A DNA stretch of 47,388 nucleotides from IMG/VR virus record IMGVR_UViG_2558860288_000006. One strand, written 5' to 3'. Each line of letters starts with the position of its first letter. Position 1 is the first letter of the stretch. Under the pieces are notes generated by a model. That model did no database searches. It saw only the letters and a program-made list of their open reading frames with translations, and was not told the DNA's origin. Below, piece by piece: positions 31,181 through 45,836 of the stretch. Source of the DNA: a virus (Duplodnaviria; Heunggongvirae; Uroviricota; Caudoviricetes). A program made the position numbers and the translations under genes.

Positions 31181-31467
31181 AAATAACCTTCCTTTCTCCA
31201 GATTTCTTGTGTGCGAAAAACACCTTCTGCATGCATCAGGCGTAATTCTTCTTTGGTGTAATCGCTGGTTTTTACCCGCCCGTCGATTAAATCGTGGCAT
31301 GAGCTACAGGCAATCGCTGCCTGCATATCGTGTGGTTTTGTCGCTGTTCCGCACGTCCCCGCCAGCCTGTAATGCGCCAGCACAGAAGTTTCGGGATTGT
31401 GATTGCAGTAGCCAGGAATTCTGACGGTGCACATCTGCCCCCGCGCCGCTTTACGTAAATCCACCAT
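31177..31467 (-). CDS. nin-region protein, Cys-rich (DUF1364/YbcO-like by recollection)
   Basis: 96 aa; Cys pairs (CTVRIPGYCNH ... CSSCHDL); directly upstream of the Q-like gene as in lambdoid nin regions. Confidence 0.4.
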   Translation of the reverse strand: MVDLRKAARGQMCTVRIPGYCNHNPETSVLAHYRLAGTCGTATKPHDMQAAIACSSCHDLIDGRVKTSDYTKEELRLMHAEGVFRTQEIWRKEGYL

Positions 31468-32066
31468 TACGCAAACTCCAGTAACTGCGCGGCCACATTT
31501 TCGACTTCCTCCGGAGAGGAAAATTTACGGAACAGGATCCAGTTCCACAGCACATTCAGTACAGATTTATAAACCTGCTGAAACTCGGTTTCGTCCATGT
31601 TCGCAAATGCGATAGATTTTGCCCTGCGCCCACGACTACCGTCCGGATAAAAATGTTCGGTGTAAAATCCGGCCTGAATGGTTACCCATTCGCGAAAAGC
31701 GTCAAATGACTTGAGTAAGGCCGTATCCCGGGTTCTGCAAGTCGCAACGGTGTTAAGGTATTGCTCTGCGGCATCACTCAGGGCTGGCGTATGTTCCCGG
31801 CCTACTGATTCACACAGATAATCAACGAAACCGGACACCAGTTTTCGTTCGCGAGGAGTGCTCGCCCCACCGACCGGAGTCCAGTAATCGAATCCGAGTT
31901 GCAGAAGTTTGAAAAAACGCTTGTGGAATGCGTAGTTACGCACACGCTTAAAGTCTGCGTGTATCCACTCACCTATTTTGATTTGATGCAGAAAATCGCA
32001 ACTCTCCGGCGTCGCCGGGAGAAGTAAACCAGAAGAGGTTTGTTTGACCAGTTGTATATGCGCCAT
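31467..32066 (-). CDS. nin-region protein (DUF1367-like by recollection)
   Basis: 199 aa ORF upstream of the Cys-rich protein and Q-like gene. Confidence 0.4.
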   Translation of the reverse strand: MAHIQLVKQTSSGLLLPATPESCDFLHQIKIGEWIHADFKRVRNYAFHKRFFKLLQLGFDYWTPVGGASTPRERKLVSGFVDYLCESVGREHTPALSDAAEQYLNTVATCRTRDTALLKSFDAFREWVTIQAGFYTEHFYPDGSRGRRAKSIAFANMDETEFQQVYKSVLNVLWNWILFRKFSSPEEVENVAAQLLEFA

Positions 32067-32339
32067 TTCTCAATCTCTCGATGGCGCAGTGCAGCAGATG
32101 ACAGTTGTTCAGGCTGACGTATAAAGTATAAATAAACTGATTCCAGTGTAAAGCCCCCACATTGATGGAATAAAAACCAAACAACAGATTGCTGGGATAA
32201 AAACAACGCTTATTATTAAAAGCGGTTAAACAAATTAAATTTTAATGTTATGCAAATCTGCCAAATCACCATAATATCTCATTTGAAAACCGCTGAAATA
32301 ACAACCCTATCAGGATTAATCATATTAAGGTGAGTAAAT

Positions 32340-32426
32340 ATGGAAAACAACAAATCTGCACATTACGTTCCTTTTTTATCTGTAATACTTTTTGTTTTAT
32401 GCTGTGCGTGGGCATTATTTTTATAA
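32340..32426 (+). CDS. Small hydrophobic peptide (28 aa), candidate membrane peptide/toxin
   Basis: Not in the ORF track (too short): AAGGTGAG SD, 5-nt spacer, ATG at 32340; MENNKSAHYVPFLSVILFVLCCAWALFL, polar N-terminus then one hydrophobic helix; convergent with hok. Confidence 0.3.
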   Translation: MENNKSAHYVPFLSVILFVLCCAWALFL

Positions 32427-32534
32427 AAATATTCACAAATAAAATATACCCGCCAAAGCTGGTTAAGTGCGGGTGCGTTGAGGATGCCTGACTCATCAGA
32501 GGTGGCGGGAGATTTCTCTCCCGCCTGGTCACTC

Positions 32535-32690
32535 TTACTCTCTAGATTCGTAGTCTACGAAGACAGCGACCTCCGTCTGGCCGGTTCGGATTCGTACCTC
32601 GCAGAGGTCTTTCCTCGTTACCAGTGCCGTCACTATGACGGTTAAACAGATGACGATCAGGGCGATTAACATCGCCTTTTGCTGCTTCAT
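32535..32690 (-). CDS. hok: Hok/Gef-family type I toxin (HokD/RelF-like)
   Basis: 51 aa from ATG at 32690: MKQQKAMLIALIVICLTVIVTALVTRKDLCEVRIRTGQTEVAVF..., near-identical to my recollection of E. coli HokD; single TM helix plus periplasmic Cys. Confidence 0.8.
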   Translation of the reverse strand: MKQQKAMLIALIVICLTVIVTALVTRKDLCEVRIRTGQTEVAVFVDYESRE

Positions 32691-32895
32691 AGCCTGCTTC
32701 TCCTTGCCTTGCGGCACGTAAGAGGCTAACCTACATTTGTGAGACATAGATTGGGCCTCAGATTAATGTTAAGCGTCTTGCAGGACGCGTAATGTTAACT
32801 GGGGCTTTTCTCTATCTGCCGCTGGTGTTCATGCCCGAGGCAAATAGCCTCAAGCACCCGCAGTAATTTTACTTAACTCCAGCTACCTCGCCAAT
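32691..32895 (-). promoter_or_regulatory. hok leader / mok-sok-type control region (approximate)
   Basis: Hok loci carry a long structured 5' leader with an overlapping upstream reading frame and an antisense RNA gene; here an in-frame upstream extension reaches 32747; exact sok position not determined. Confidence 0.3.
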
Positions 32896-32952
32896 ATGAA
32901 ATCAATCAGAAAGGCGATCCATAAGAACAATAGACAGATAAAGGATAGTCAG

Positions 32953-34314
32953 ATGCAAACAGCAGAGATGTTTCGAAATTTTTTGAACAATTTGAAAATT
33001 TCAGACGAACGTATGCAGGCAATTGCAACACATTATAAAAATGCCACAAGAAGACTTAACATCGAGTTTCGGGGGGTAGCGAATGGATTCAACAATCGAT
33101 TGAAAGTCGGTTCAGCAGGTCGCCGAACAGCGGTTAGCAAAACATCAGACTTGGATATGCTGTATATTATGCCCGCGAGATTGTGGGGAGATTACCAATC
33201 CGGTGTTAATCCACAGCGCCGTTTGCTTCGCGATGTAAAAGAAGCATTAAAACTATCTTTTACCCAGCAAGAGATCAAGGTTGATAGATTAGTTGTACAA
33301 ATCATTTTTGACTCTTTTCATATAGAGGTGCAACCAGTTTTTGAGACTGATGAAGGGCATTTTAAATATCCTGATACTAAGGCCAACGATGGTAATGGAG
33401 GGTGGCGAGTAACTAAACCTCGGATGGAAATTACCGAAATGAGAAATTTCCGTAATAACAAAAGTAGTAATCTTCATAATCTTTGCCGCATGTTAAGAGC
33501 CTGGAAAAATAGAAACACCGTTGATATGGGGGGGCTTCTCATTGACACATTGGCTTGGAGATTTCTGAAACAAACAGATGATTATGATAATACCGGAATG
33601 GTCAGTTATGGGCTTATGTGTCGAGACTTCTTTGACTTTTTGCATCAAGAAGATGTCCATGAACATTATGCAGCGATAGGAAGTGTGCAGAGAGTTAAGG
33701 TCTATAGAAATTTTCAGCGGCAAGCAAAACGAGCCTTTAAATTATGCACAAAAGCGATTGAAGCTTATGAGAATGGCTCGACAAAGAAATGCCACGAACA
33801 CTGGCGAGAAGTTTTTGGGCTAACTTTCCCTAAAGCAGTTGTAGAAATGCGTGACTCTCAGGGGTTAGAGTCAGCTAATTTCATCAATGAGTCCTATACG
33901 GCTCAGACGTGGCGCAATACGGAAGAGTTTACAGATGAAAAGTTTGATGATGTTGATATAAGATACCCCCTCGAAGTTAACTGCATTGTCAAAGAAAACG
34001 GGTATAGGGACCGTGCAATTAGGGCTTACCTGTCGGATATGGCTCGTTATTGGTTACCACCGAATAGAACTTTATCATTTTCGATCAACCAAGCAAGTTT
34101 GGATATCATTCCTGAGCCTTATGATATTTACTGGAAAGTACTGAATAGAGGTTTAGAAGCTGAGCAGCGTGATGAAGTTCGAGGTCAAATAGTTTTAGGT
34201 CAAGTAACTCACACTGAACATACAAAATTTAGAGGTGATCACAAGGTTTGGTGTTACATAGTTAAGAACCATATAGTAATTGCCCAAAACGTTATCGACA
34301 TACCAATCGAGTAA
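32953..34314 (+). CDS. Nucleotidyltransferase, Pol-beta superfamily (CD-NTase/SMODS-like signalling enzyme candidate)
   Basis: Active-site pattern ...KVGSAGRRTAVSKTSDLDMLYIMP... (GS, DxD) and a later acidic strand ...VVQIIFDSFHIE...; ATG at 32953 has an AAGGA SD (alternative ATG at 32896 gives 472 aa); AT-rich, plus strand. Confidence 0.65.
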   Translation: MQTAEMFRNFLNNLKISDERMQAIATHYKNATRRLNIEFRGVANGFNNRLKVGSAGRRTAVSKTSDLDMLYIMPARLWGDYQSGVNPQRRLLRDVKEALKLSFTQQEIKVDRLVVQIIFDSFHIEVQPVFETDEGHFKYPDTKANDGNGGWRVTKPRMEITEMRNFRNNKSSNLHNLCRMLRAWKNRNTVDMGGLLIDTLAWRFLKQTDDYDNTGMVSYGLMCRDFFDFLHQEDVHEHYAAIGSVQRVKVYRNFQRQAKRAFKLCTKAIEAYENGSTKKCHEHWREVFGLTFPKAVVEMRDSQGLESANFINESYTAQTWRNTEEFTDEKFDDVDIRYPLEVNCIVKENGYRDRAIRAYLSDMARYWLPPNRTLSFSINQASLDIIPEPYDIYWKVLNRGLEAEQRDEVRGQIVLGQVTHTEHTKFRGDHKVWCYIVKNHIVIAQNVIDIPIE

Positions 34315-34319
34315 TTATC

Positions 34320-34901
34320 ATGCAAAAAAATGACTTATTATCTCAGATTGCCTCTGCCGGATATAATGTTGGATTTGGCGCTAAGAAAAATTTTGCTACA
34401 TTTGATATTGTTAGCAAACTCCCTGGCTGGATTGGTATTATATCACTAGCAGTCTCTATTTTAGGCCTTTATATGGATGAAATGAGTTCTAAGAATATTG
34501 CAGCCATTTTTATCATTTTAAGCATTGGCAGTTTGTACATCAATTTCTATGATGGTGATAAAAATAAATATGAAGAGGCTGGAAAGAAGCAAACAGCAAT
34601 CTTTAGAAAGATTGAAAGATTGTATTACGATGCAAAATCAGAAAGCGAACCGGATTCTGTTAAATATATTGGGCAACTTGACATTCTGTTAAAAGAATTT
34701 GATGAAACCACTATCACCAAACAAATTTGTGGAAGCAATTGGTATGCTCATTATAAATTCTTTAGTGAAATGGAAAAAAGGTGGCTTGAAGATCAGTTGT
34801 CATTGACTTTCTGGAAGGATAAAGTCCCTAACACTTTGAAATTTCTCATTCTGATAGTTTTCTGCGTCGTTTTGCTTTCGATAATTTATAGGTGTGGTTG
34901 A
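34320..34901 (+). CDS. Small membrane protein with three predicted TM helices (candidate effector)
   Basis: 193 aa; hydrophobic helices WIGIISLAVSILGLYM, IAAIFIILSIGSLYINF and C-terminal FLILIVFCVVLLSIIY; start 5 nt after the NTase stop (operon). Confidence 0.6.
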   Translation: MQKNDLLSQIASAGYNVGFGAKKNFATFDIVSKLPGWIGIISLAVSILGLYMDEMSSKNIAAIFIILSIGSLYINFYDGDKNKYEEAGKKQTAIFRKIERLYYDAKSESEPDSVKYIGQLDILLKEFDETTITKQICGSNWYAHYKFFSEMEKRWLEDQLSLTFWKDKVPNTLKFLILIVFCVVLLSIIYRCG

Positions 34902-45460: not shown

Positions 45461-45655
45461 ATGCGGTATGAAAAAGTCAAACCATGCCCTTTTTGTGGTT
45501 GTCCATCAGTAACGGTGAAAGCCATTTCAGGATATTACCGCGCGAAGTGTAACGGATGCGAATCCCGAACCGGCTATGGTGGAAGTGAAAAAGAAGCACT
45601 CGAACGATGGAATAAACGAACCACTGGAAATAATAATGGAGGTGTTCATGTATAA
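45461..45655 (+). CDS. ralR: Restriction alleviation protein Lar/RalR-like
   Basis: 64 aa from ATG at 45461; Cys-rich (KPCPFCGCP ... KCNGCESRTGYGGSEKEALERWNKR) as in the Lar family; position before xis/int. Confidence 0.55.
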   Translation: MRYEKVKPCPFCGCPSVTVKAISGYYRAKCNGCESRTGYGGSEKEALERWNKRTTGNNNGGVHV

Positions 45656-45836
45656 AATTACCGCCACTATTGAAAAGGAAGGTGGCACTCCTACTAACTG
45701 GACAAGGTACTCAAAAACAAAATTAACCAAATCAGAATGCGAAAAAATGCTCTCAGGTAAAAAAGAAGCAGGCGTTTCCAGAGAGCAGAAAGTAAAACTG
45801 ATAAATTTTAATTGCGAGCAACTTCAGTCCTCGTGA
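45648..45836 (+). CDS. Small hypothetical protein (YdaC-like position)
   Basis: 62 aa from ATG at 45648 with a GGAGGTG SD; overlaps the lar stop by 8 nt. Confidence 0.4.
   Translation: MYKITATIEKEGGTPTNWTRYSKTKLTKSECEKMLSGKKEAGVSREQKVKLINFNCEQLQSS

What the first reader, a model, noticed from the sequence alone, without database searches (positions are those of the whole stretch)
32326..32426. Unannotated 28-aa hydrophobic peptide gene with a strong ribosome-binding site, convergent with hok
Seen: AAGGTGAG, a 5-nt spacer, then ATG at 32340 encoding MENNKSAHYVPFLSVILFVLCCAWALFL (stop at 32424-32426). It is too short for the ORF track but has the layout of small membrane peptides such as type I toxins: polar N-terminus and a single hydrophobic helix. 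It lies in an AT-rich intergenic stretch downstream of the hok 3' end. Inference: a second small toxin or membrane regulator within the same cargo island.
Basis: inference. Interest (0 to 1): 0.4.

Follow-up and report, generated by a model that had tools for sequence, protein, structure and literature searches.

The report
Unannotated 28-codon prophage membrane-peptide gene
The 28-codon reading frame is a real, selection-maintained but unannotated gene for a tiny membrane peptide carried by lambda-like prophages in about a fifth of E. coli genomes; what the peptide does, and whether it is a toxin, is still unknown.

Summary
An ATG ORF at 32340-32426 (+) encodes MENNKSAHYVPFLSVILFVLCCAWALFL. 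It follows AAGGTGAG (32327-32334, one base right of the stated start) in a 31%-GC gap, convergent with hok. An ORF with a ribosome-binding site is not unusual here: seven occur in the window. The conservation is what matters. All 73 usable metagenome loci found through an upstream non-coding block alone keep an intact 28-codon frame. So do all 120 viral loci found through a mid-ORF pattern. Three clades differ mainly at synonymous sites (pN/pS 0.12-0.35). The only other frame with a low ratio shares its third positions and carries stop codons. The ORF has no indels, while its leader does. The ORF always travels with a 46-nt conserved AT-rich block about 90 nt upstream, probably its promoter. 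This roughly 220-bp unit lies against phage lytic transcription, at the edge of a variable cargo or defence slot. It occurs in about 22% of complete E. coli genomes, in Shigella and E. ruysiae, and in four induced phages, and is never annotated. It matches no known protein or RNA family. I found no convincing antisense RNA and no structured leader, so the "second type I toxin" reading is unproven. My best reading is a prophage-expressed single-pass inner-membrane microprotein. It is a new member of a known kind.

The parts
32207..32252 (+). Conserved AT-rich block (CGCTTATTATTAAAAGCGGTTAAACAAATTAAATTTTAATGTTATG). This is the candidate promoter region of the peptide gene. Possible hexamers are TTATTA (32213-32218), 17 nt, TAAATT (32236-32241). 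An alternative further downstream is ATGCAA (32250-32255), 16 nt, TAATAT (32272-32277).
   Evidence: The block is 85-96% identical between the three clades and has no gaps, while the adjoining leader is 50-58% identical with gaps. It is strictly linked to the ORF: 73/73 loci found by the block have the ORF and 120/120 loci found by the ORF have the block. The promoter hexamers are weak position-weight-matrix matches only. The transcription start is not determined.
32207..32224 (-). Small hairpin CGCTT-ATTATTAA-AAGCG. In this clade it is followed on the minus strand by TTGTTTTTAT, so it looks like a weak terminator for rightward phage transcription. It overlaps the block.
   Evidence: Flagged by the terminator scan. 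All 11 representatives keep the pairs on the minus strand, some through G-U wobble and one through a double compensatory change. The T-run is absent in clade C.
32245..32277 (.). Inverted repeat or hairpin ATGTTATG-N17-CATAATAT. Its upper stem covaries between clades. It could be a 5' stem-loop of the peptide mRNA or an operator spanning the alternative promoter.
   Evidence: Present in all 27 sequence variants. The upper stem is AATCTG/CAGATT, AAAAAG/CTTTTT or AAAG/CTTT. In the window itself the upper stem is broken and only the lower stem forms, at -2.7 kcal/mol. The data do not show which strand uses it.
32253..32326 (+). Variable leader between the block and the ribosome-binding site.
   Evidence: 50-58% identity between clades, with indels. 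The distance from block to ATG varies from 85 to 92 nt. No significant predicted structure: z = +1.0 for 32247-32440.
32327..32334 (+). Shine-Dalgarno sequence AAGGTGAG, followed by a 5-nt spacer.
   Evidence: Read directly. The variants are AAGGTGG in clade B, AAGGTAG in clade C, and AAAGTGAG or AAAGCGAG in the commonest clade-A haplotype.
32340..32426 (+). 28-codon gene encoding MENNKSAHYVPFLSVILFVLCCAWALFL. It has a polar N-terminus (residues 1-10) and one hydrophobic helix (about 11-28). The predicted topology is N-terminus in the cytoplasm and C-terminus outside.
   Evidence: The ORF is intact in all 73 block-ascertained and all 120 ORF-pattern-ascertained loci. pN/pS is 0.12-0.35 in this frame; the only other frame with a low ratio shares its third positions and has stop codons. 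Of 44 single-site changes, 21 are synonymous, against 21-28% expected (P = 7e-5 to 5e-3). There are no indels. The topology is inferred from the positive-inside rule.
32448..32463 (-). Terminator hairpin of the convergent hok mRNA. It is ACCAGC-TTTG-GCGGGT on the minus strand, has one mismatch here, and is followed by a T-rich run. It marks the start of the neighbouring hok/sok module.
   Evidence: Read directly. Other loci carry the perfect hairpin ACCCGC-TTCG-GCGGGT. In 118 of 185 loci this hok 3' end lies directly downstream of the peptide ORF.

Best explanation
The ORF is a real protein-coding micro-gene. With a conserved AT-rich block about 90 nt upstream (probably its promoter), a variable leader and a ribosome-binding site, it forms a self-contained unit of about 220 bp (32207-32427). 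Lambda-like (Rac/Qin-type) prophages of Escherichia and Shigella carry this unit on the strand opposite to phage early and late transcription. It sits at the border between the conserved DUF1367/YbcO/Q module and a variable cargo or defence slot. In this window that slot holds hok/sok and a type I CBASS. The product is a 28-residue peptide that most likely inserts into the inner membrane as a single helix, with the N-terminus in the cytoplasm. Its orientation and its own upstream element suggest that it is made from the resident prophage rather than during lytic growth. I think it most likely acts as other small single-pass proteins do, by binding and modulating a larger membrane protein of the host or of an incoming phage, and not as the toxin of a classical RNA-controlled type I toxin-antitoxin pair. 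Shown here: the existence of the ORF, its conservation, purifying selection on the protein, the linkage of block and ORF, the genomic contexts, and the absence from known families. Inferred: the promoter, expression in lysogens, membrane insertion and topology, and the mode of action.
For: An unbiased test used 76 metagenome loci found through the upstream block alone. All 73 that are long enough keep a 28-codon ORF. All 120 viral loci found through a mid-ORF pattern keep the same start and stop. There are three clades with 80-84% nucleotide identity in the ORF. pN/pS is 0.12-0.35 in the ORF frame and about 1 in the others, except for the antisense frame that shares third positions, which has stop codons. 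Segregating sites fall 8/10/19 by codon position, and 21 of 44 changes are synonymous against 21-28% expected. The ORF has no indels, while the leader length varies. Conservation is bimodal: block 85-96%, leader 50-58%, ORF 80-84%. Block and ORF are linked in both directions. The unit occurs with different neighbours upstream (DUF1367 or a Qin-like gene) and downstream (hok, hok remnants, IteAS, DUF1971). A third setting lies next to SdsR/RyeA in a non-E. coli chromosome. It is always convergent with its neighbour. Four induced temperate phages carry it. The peptide is hydrophobic (Kyte-Doolittle 2.56) and the unit is 30% GC against 47.6% for the window. The mRNA shows no significant structure that would hide the ribosome-binding site.
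Against: There is no expression data of any kind. The promoter hexamers are weak, one candidate -10 varies (TAAATT, TACATT, TGCATT), and the transcription start is unknown. No consistent plus-strand terminator follows the ORF. The ribosome-binding site is degraded in the commonest haplotype. The family is narrow and shallow, limited to Escherichia and Shigella, so all selection statistics rest on 81 sites and few independent lineages. Nothing here separates a benign modulator from a toxic peptide. Many short hydrophobic peptides are toxic when overexpressed (established knowledge, not tested here).
Confidence: 0.6

Rival explanations
1. The peptide is the toxin of a new type I toxin-antitoxin system. 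It would depolarise the membrane, and its synthesis would be held down by an antisense RNA transcribed from the minus strand across its leader or ribosome-binding site. Such an RNA might start at the promoter-like site TTGTTT-17-TAATAT (32346-32319) and end near the 32207-32224 hairpin.
For: The peptide is short, very hydrophobic and mobile-element-borne, and it sits beside hok/sok. It has a fairly long leader of roughly 55-90 nt. A promoter-like site on the minus strand overlaps codons 2-5 and the ribosome-binding site in clade A. The minus strand of the leader folds slightly better than shuffled sequence in some clades, with z from +0.3 to -2.3. Two small hairpins keep their pairs through G-U wobble on the minus strand only. 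The weakened ribosome-binding site in the commonest haplotype could reflect selection against translation.
Against: The antisense promoter is not conserved. The -35 is lost in clades B and C, and the -10 in clade B lacks the final T. The would-be terminator has no T-run in clade C and only a 5-bp A/U-rich stem. Structure z-scores are weak on both strands. The toxin mRNA shows no fold that sequesters the ribosome-binding site. No nearby sequence is complementary to the leader. There is no match to Hok/Gef, Ldr, Ibs, TisB or other toxin models in Pfam, NCBIfam, PHROGs or PADLOC, and no Rfam antitoxin family. Genomes that carry it hold a median of one copy, not tandem arrays.
Confidence: 0.22
2. 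The transcript is the functional product. A leftward RNA from the conserved block would read into the convergent hok 3' end (the fold-back and terminator region), or would oppose rightward read-through towards the Q module. The short ORF would serve only to keep the RNA translated or stable.
For: The ORF's stop codon lies only 22 nt from the hok terminator hairpin, and 118 of 185 loci have this arrangement. No plus-strand terminator is predicted between the ORF and hok in the window. The block is more conserved than the ORF's synonymous sites. Lambda has a precedent for regulatory antisense transcription in this region, the paQ promoter (established knowledge).
Against: Purifying selection acts on the amino-acid sequence. 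There is an invariant N-terminal motif and an invariant Cys21 and Trp24. A mere spacer ORF would not show this. The unit persists in 67 of 185 loci where hok is replaced or absent. In some of these it is followed directly by a bidirectional terminator.
Confidence: 0.1
3. It is a chance ORF in AT-rich spacer DNA. Its conservation would reflect only recent common ancestry or constraint on a DNA or RNA element of the phage early transcript on the minus strand.
For: ORFs with ribosome-binding sites of this size arise by chance about seven times in the window. AT-rich sequence yields hydrophobic codons (also noted in PMC11188072). Most copies are more than 90% identical. Hairpins that pair best on the minus strand lie nearby.
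Against: The excess of synonymous change is frame-specific. The ORF has no nonsense or indel alleles in 193 loci, while the adjoining leader has diverged to 50-58% identity with indels. Homology between prophages ends exactly after the stop codon.
Confidence: 0.06

Closest known systems
Small single-pass inner-membrane proteins of E. coli found by conservation and ribosome profiling (for example YohP, YoaJ/K, YpdK, and the Qin-prophage protein YnfS)
   Same: Fewer than 50 residues, one hydrophobic helix, a ribosome-binding site plus ATG, missed by annotation pipelines and recognised by ORF conservation. YnfS ([29 protein letters not shown]) is likewise prophage-borne, 29 residues long and contains a Cys-Cys pair.
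   Different: No sequence similarity to any of them. This family is absent from K-12, where rem occupies the equivalent position in Qin. No translation or localisation data exist for it.
Type I toxins (Hok/Sok next door; ShoB/OhsC, Ibs/Sib, TisB/IstR, ZorO/OrzO, DinQ/AgrB)
   Same: A short hydrophobic peptide on a mobile element, with a leader of roughly 55-90 nt. It is close in size to ShoB (26 residues) and TisB (29) and, like ShoB, ends in a hydrophobic tail (sizes and sequences recalled, not tested here).
   Different: I found no conserved antisense or complementary small RNA and no structured leader that sequesters the ribosome-binding site. There are no tandem copies and no match to toxin family models.
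Phage 'morons' and lysogenic-conversion genes such as lambda bor
   Same: A compact unit with lower GC than its surroundings and its own upstream element. It is oriented against lytic transcription, is found between different neighbours, and lies at module borders or prophage ends.
   Different: It is far smaller than described morons. The promoter and terminator are not demonstrated, and there is no known benefit to the host.
Entero67K intergenic smORF microproteins (Fesenko et al., 'The Cryptic Bacterial Microproteome', PMC11188072)
   Same: An intergenic ORF of 15-70 codons in Enterobacteriaceae under purifying selection. It is hydrophobic and has no Pfam domain, which is the class that study describes.
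   Different: I could not find this sequence in the stored, truncated supplementary tables. Whether it is already one of the 67,297 clusters is unknown.

Membership tests
Type I toxin-antitoxin system | Small (under 60 residues) hydrophobic peptide with a membrane helix | tested here: met
   28 residues; the strongest 18-residue Kyte-Doolittle mean is 2.56.
Type I toxin-antitoxin system | A cis-antisense or nearby partly complementary small RNA antitoxin | tested here: inconclusive
   A promoter-like site on the minus strand exists in clade A but is not conserved in clades B and C. The putative terminator is weak and lacks a T-run in clade C. There is no complementary repeat nearby and no Rfam hit. 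RNA data are needed.
[quoted passage not shown]
   For 32247-32440 the minimum free energy is -23.2 kcal/mol against -27.6 for shuffles, z = +1.0. The leader is poorly conserved.
Type I toxin-antitoxin system | Growth arrest or membrane damage on expression, relieved by the RNA | not testable with these tools
   Requires experiment.
Described toxin and small-protein families (Hok/Gef PF01848, Ldr, Ibs, TisB, etc.; NCBIfam; PHROGs; PADLOC) | Significant match to the family profile | tested here: not met
   No family in Pfam at E <= 0.1. Only chance-level hits (E 0.04-0.27) in NCBIfam and PHROGs. None in PADLOC.
Bacterial lipoprotein / signal peptide | Positively charged N-region and a lipobox [LVI][ASTVI][GAS]C before the invariant Cys | tested here: not met
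   The weak hits to lipoprotein and Rz1-like models prompted this check. The residue before Cys21 is Leu or Phe in most variants, and Gly, Cys or Ser only in minor ones. The N-region has net charge of about zero. A mature product would be only 8 residues long.
Phage moron (autonomous accessory unit) | Own promoter and terminator, composition unlike the flanks, presence independent of neighbouring genes | tested here: inconclusive
   Composition and independence of context are met. A conserved upstream block is linked to the ORF, but its promoter activity is not shown and a plus-strand terminator is present only in some contexts.
Conserved small membrane protein gene (Hemm/Storz criteria) | Ribosome-binding site plus start codon, ORF conserved across relatives with a coding substitution pattern, predicted membrane helix | tested here: met
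Conserved small membrane protein gene (Hemm/Storz criteria) | Detected protein (tagged fusion, ribosome profiling) | not testable with these tools
   No text or supplement hit for the sequence.
Leader peptide / upstream ORF attenuator | A co-directional downstream gene under its control | tested here: not met
   The downstream neighbour is convergent in most contexts: hok, IteS and, in clade C, a minus-strand terminator. Only clade B has a co-directional gene, about 500 nt away.

The most novel reading that the evidence does not exclude
The unit is a new kind of RNA-regulated or RNA-regulating toxin module. Either the peptide is a type I toxin with an undetected antisense RNA, or its mRNA is a dual-function transcript whose 3' end overlaps the fold-back and terminator region of the convergent hok mRNA. 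In the second case two membrane peptides would be coupled at the edge of a prophage defence slot.
Probability: 0.12. Interest if true: 0.6.

Novelty: new member of a known kind. Interest (0 to 1): 0.38.

Why it matters
About one in five complete E. coli genomes, and inducible temperate phages, carry a selection-maintained gene that no annotation records. It sits exactly where lambda-like prophages swap defence cargo (CBASS, IteAS, hok and others). It may therefore be useful as a landmark for that slot. It is also a tractable candidate for a prophage-encoded membrane microprotein with a role in lysogen physiology, superinfection or toxin control. More generally, it is a clean worked example of rescuing a sub-30-codon gene by comparative evidence. 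If further work showed it to be ordinary, it would still merit an annotation entry.

Tried and rejected
(1) Protein-database routes failed. An exact look-up of five variants found nothing. The peptide is too short for the search for homologous proteins, and also for the representative search and structure prediction. (2) Profile scans against Pfam, NCBIfam, PHROGs and PADLOC gave no family. (3) Rfam found only sok nearby, at both gathering and permissive thresholds. (4) I first thought homology with clade B was confined to the ribosome-binding site plus ORF. That was an artefact of the short query. Homology extends upstream through the whole gap and ends only at the stop codon. (5) My first block pattern had a spacing error and returned nothing, wasting one viral scan. 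I corrected it after a local test. (6) Overlapping ORFs were rejected. The 53-codon plus-strand ORF (32330-32491) and the 70-codon minus-strand ORF (32320-32532) have stop codons in other clades and pN/pS near 1. (7) The lipoprotein reading was rejected (see membership test). (8) The leader-peptide reading was rejected because there is no consistent downstream gene. (9) A trans-acting complementary RNA was not found. (10) Folding z-scores on both strands were weak and do not indicate a strand. (11) Literature gave nothing. The peptide strings occur in no paper text. They are absent from the stored supplements of the EHEC EDL933 and Sakai translatome papers and of the Enterobacteriaceae microproteome study, though some of those files are truncated. 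The Hok survey preprint does not mention a neighbouring small ORF. A UPEC small-proteome preprint was listed but is not held. (12) K-12 MG1655 lacks the gene, so K-12 ribosome-profiling data cannot be used.

Full report
**Observation.** The sequence is as described. ATG at 32340 opens a 28-codon frame, MENNKSAHYVPFLSVILFVLCCAWALFL, that ends with TAA at 32424-32426. The ORF sits in a gap of 31% GC in a window of 47.6% GC. On one side is the DUF1367 gene (31467-32066, minus strand). On the other is hok (32535-32690, minus strand; mok extends to 32747; Rfam sok at 32685-32859). The peptide gene and hok are convergent. The hok terminator hairpin (32448-32463) begins 22 nt after the peptide's stop codon. 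The layout by itself is not remarkable. Seven ATG ORFs of 25-45 codons with a 5-nt Shine-Dalgarno match occur in the window, though only this one is hydrophobic enough for a membrane helix.

**Genomic setting.** A 99.8% identical region in E. coli strain R1 shows a Rac-type lambdoid prophage integrated next to yebY. Its order is int, xis, ralR, exo, bet, gam, recE, kilR, racR, ydaSTUV, then DUF1627 and DUF977. Next come a two-gene type I CBASS on the opposite strand, hok, and the gap with the peptide ORF. After that are DUF1367, YbcO/DUF1364 and the DUF1133 Q-like antiterminator, followed by the lysis, head and tail genes. The peptide gene is therefore on the strand opposite to phage early-right and late transcription. 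No RefSeq or GenBank record inspected annotates anything at this position.

**Is it a gene?**
- BLAST-found relatives with different neighbours all keep a 28-codon ORF with the same start and stop.
- A viral-contig scan with a degenerate mid-ORF pattern returned 120 loci. All are intact, with 13 peptide variants. That pattern biases codons 7-18 towards synonymous change.
- I therefore re-ascertained the family through a non-coding element, a conserved 40-nt block upstream. The metagenome scan gave 76 loci. Of these, 73 are long enough to judge, and all 73 carry an intact 28-codon ORF; three have Glu2 replaced by Gly.
- In this unbiased set plus the BLAST-found loci (82 loci, 24 haplotypes), segregating sites fall 8/10/19 by codon position. 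Of 44 single-site changes, 21 are synonymous against 21-28% expected (P = 7e-5 to 5e-3, depending on transition bias). No nonsense allele or indel occurs, whereas the distance from block to ATG varies from 85 to 92 nt.
- Between the three clades, pN/pS is 0.12-0.35 in the ORF frame and about 1 in the other frames. The exception is the antisense frame that shares third positions, and that frame contains stop codons.
- Eighteen of 28 residues were invariant among the 13 variants first aligned, including MENN, Ala7-His8, Pro11-Phe-Leu-Ser14, Cys21 and Trp24. The metagenome loci later added rare changes at Glu2, Ala7, Phe12, Leu17 and Ala25.
- I conclude that the protein sequence is under purifying selection.

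**Anatomy of the unit.** Conservation between clades is bimodal:

| Segment | Window coordinates | Identity between clades | Gaps |
|---|---|---|---|
| AT-rich block | 32207-32252 | 85-96% | none |
| Leader | 32253-32321 | 50-58% | yes |
| Ribosome-binding-site region | 32322-32339 | 67-78% | few |
| ORF | 32340-32426 | 80-84% | none |

- The block and the ORF are linked in both directions: 73/73 and 120/120.
- Homology between prophages with different cargo ends at 32427, one base after the stop codon.
- In Qin-like prophages with a different upstream gene, homology begins at 32091.
- Clade C shares only the stretch from the block to the stop codon.
- The block is therefore the natural candidate for the promoter. 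Two weak sigma-70-like arrangements fit all clades: TTATTA-17-TAAATT, and ATGMAA-16-TAnnAT. The first -10 is not invariant, and I cannot place the transcription start.
- An inverted repeat, ATGTTATG-N17-CATAAYAT, has an upper stem that covaries between clades. It could be a 5' stem-loop of the mRNA or an operator. It is weak in the window itself.
- The plus-strand RNA shows no significant structure (z = +1.0).

**Distribution.**
- About 1,170 of 5,426 complete E. coli genomes (22%) carry the ORF, with one to three copies each.
- Among one-per-species genomes, only Shigella flexneri and Escherichia ruysiae matched.
- Four induced E. coli phages carry it.
- K-12 MG1655 lacks it; rem occupies the equivalent position in Qin.
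- Directly downstream lie the hok 3' end or hok remnants in 118 of 185 loci, a clade-B junction (DUF1971 gene) in 44, an IteAS system behind a bidirectional terminator in 19, and the clade-C context in 4.
- Clade C lies about 550 nt from SraC/RyeA-SdsR/RyeB in the chromosome of an organism whose ptrB is only 86% identical to that of E. coli. In one contig a prophage tail-fibre end is joined inside the sRNA locus. This is the same chromosomal neighbourhood where the window's own prophage is integrated, so clade C may be a relic of an earlier prophage. That last point is inference.

**What it is likely to do.**
- The peptide has a polar, conserved N-terminus and an 18-20-residue uncharged hydrophobic stretch that runs to the C-terminus. 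The positive-inside rule predicts N-terminus in, C-terminus out (inference).
- The orientation against lytic transcription, the linked upstream element, the low GC content and the independence from neighbours match an accessory 'moron' expressed from the prophage (inference).
I also found no complementary sequence nearby, no leader that sequesters the ribosome-binding site, no tandem copies and no family match.
- In its favour: a promoter-like site on the minus strand overlaps the start region in clade A, and two small hairpins pair best on the minus strand. The idea therefore stays open at about 0.2.
- A purely RNA-level role, for example reading into the hok fold-back and terminator region 22 nt away, cannot explain selection on the amino-acid sequence or the loci without hok. 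It could still coexist with a peptide function.

**Comparison and novelty.** The gene works like the small single-pass membrane proteins and prophage morons already known, and it resembles type I toxins in size and composition. It is not a member of any described family by sequence. A survey of Enterobacteriaceae reported 67,297 clusters of intergenic ORFs under purifying selection, mostly hydrophobic (PMC11188072). A find of this kind is therefore expected in principle. I could not establish whether this cluster is already in that catalogue. I rate it a new member of a known kind, of moderate interest. It is solid as a gene call, widespread, and located at a defence-cargo border, but it has no demonstrated function.

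Noticed in passing
window 32896-34901 (+): This is a two-gene type I CBASS. A SMODS cyclase with an AGS-C sensor domain (472 residues; PADLOC Cyclase E = 7e-157) is followed by a SLATT_6 two-helix membrane effector (193 residues). It lies on the strand opposite to phage lytic genes, just beyond hok/sok.
   Followed up: partly
window 32152..32125 (-): A strong sigma-70-like promoter (TTTACA-16-TATACT, 10 of 12 matches) sits about 60 nt upstream of the DUF1367 start codon. It is identical in clades A and B, even where the downstream gene differs (DUF1367 or a Qin-like 93-residue protein). A constitutive-looking promoter in front of the Q-antiterminator module of a prophage is unexpected.
   Followed up: partly
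window 32158-32177 and 32185-32204: A 20-nt direct repeat, CA(C/G)ATTG(A/C)TGG(A/G)ATAAAAAC, occurs twice 27 nt apart. It lies between the minus-strand promoter and the peptide gene's conserved block, and could be a regulator-binding site between divergent promoters.
   Followed up: no
window 32303-32317: A small hairpin, AACCCT-ATC-AGGATT, lies in the leader. Across clade-A variants the third pair reads C-G, U-G or U-A on the minus strand, but is a C-A mismatch on the plus strand in the window. This hints at a minus-strand RNA element; its shape loosely recalls a boxB hairpin.
   Followed up: partly
window 32448-32463 (-): The hok terminator hairpin has a mismatch in this window (ACCAGC/GCGGGT), whereas most related loci and K-12 hokD have the perfect ACCCGC/GCGGGT. 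Several related loci keep only the hok 3' untranslated region, with hok itself replaced.
   Followed up: no
window 45654-45832 (-): Rfam finds the RalA antitoxin RNA (215 bits). In the matching strain R1 record, ralR, recE, bet, exo, kilR, racR and ydaSTUV identify the element as a Rac-type prophage integrated beside yebY.
   Followed up: partly
L202 8035-8179; L106 position about 1444: In a non-E. coli Escherichia-like chromosome, the clade-C copy of the peptide unit lies about 550 nt from SraC/RyeA-SdsR/RyeB. In contig L106 a prophage tail-fibre end is joined inside that sRNA locus, so the locus serves as a phage attachment site.
   Followed up: partly
L006, L065 and 50+ related loci, the position equivalent to window 32327-32334: The commonest haplotype has the Shine-Dalgarno sequence weakened from AAGGTGAG to AAAGTGAG or AAAGCGAG, while the ORF stays intact. 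Translation may be tuned down in that lineage.
   Followed up: no
L007 (K-12 MG1655) 1123-1212: The Qin prophage of K-12 encodes YnfS ([29 protein letters not shown]). It is an unrelated 29-residue hydrophobic protein that also has a Cys-Cys pair, and it lies on the other side of the Q gene.
   Followed up: no
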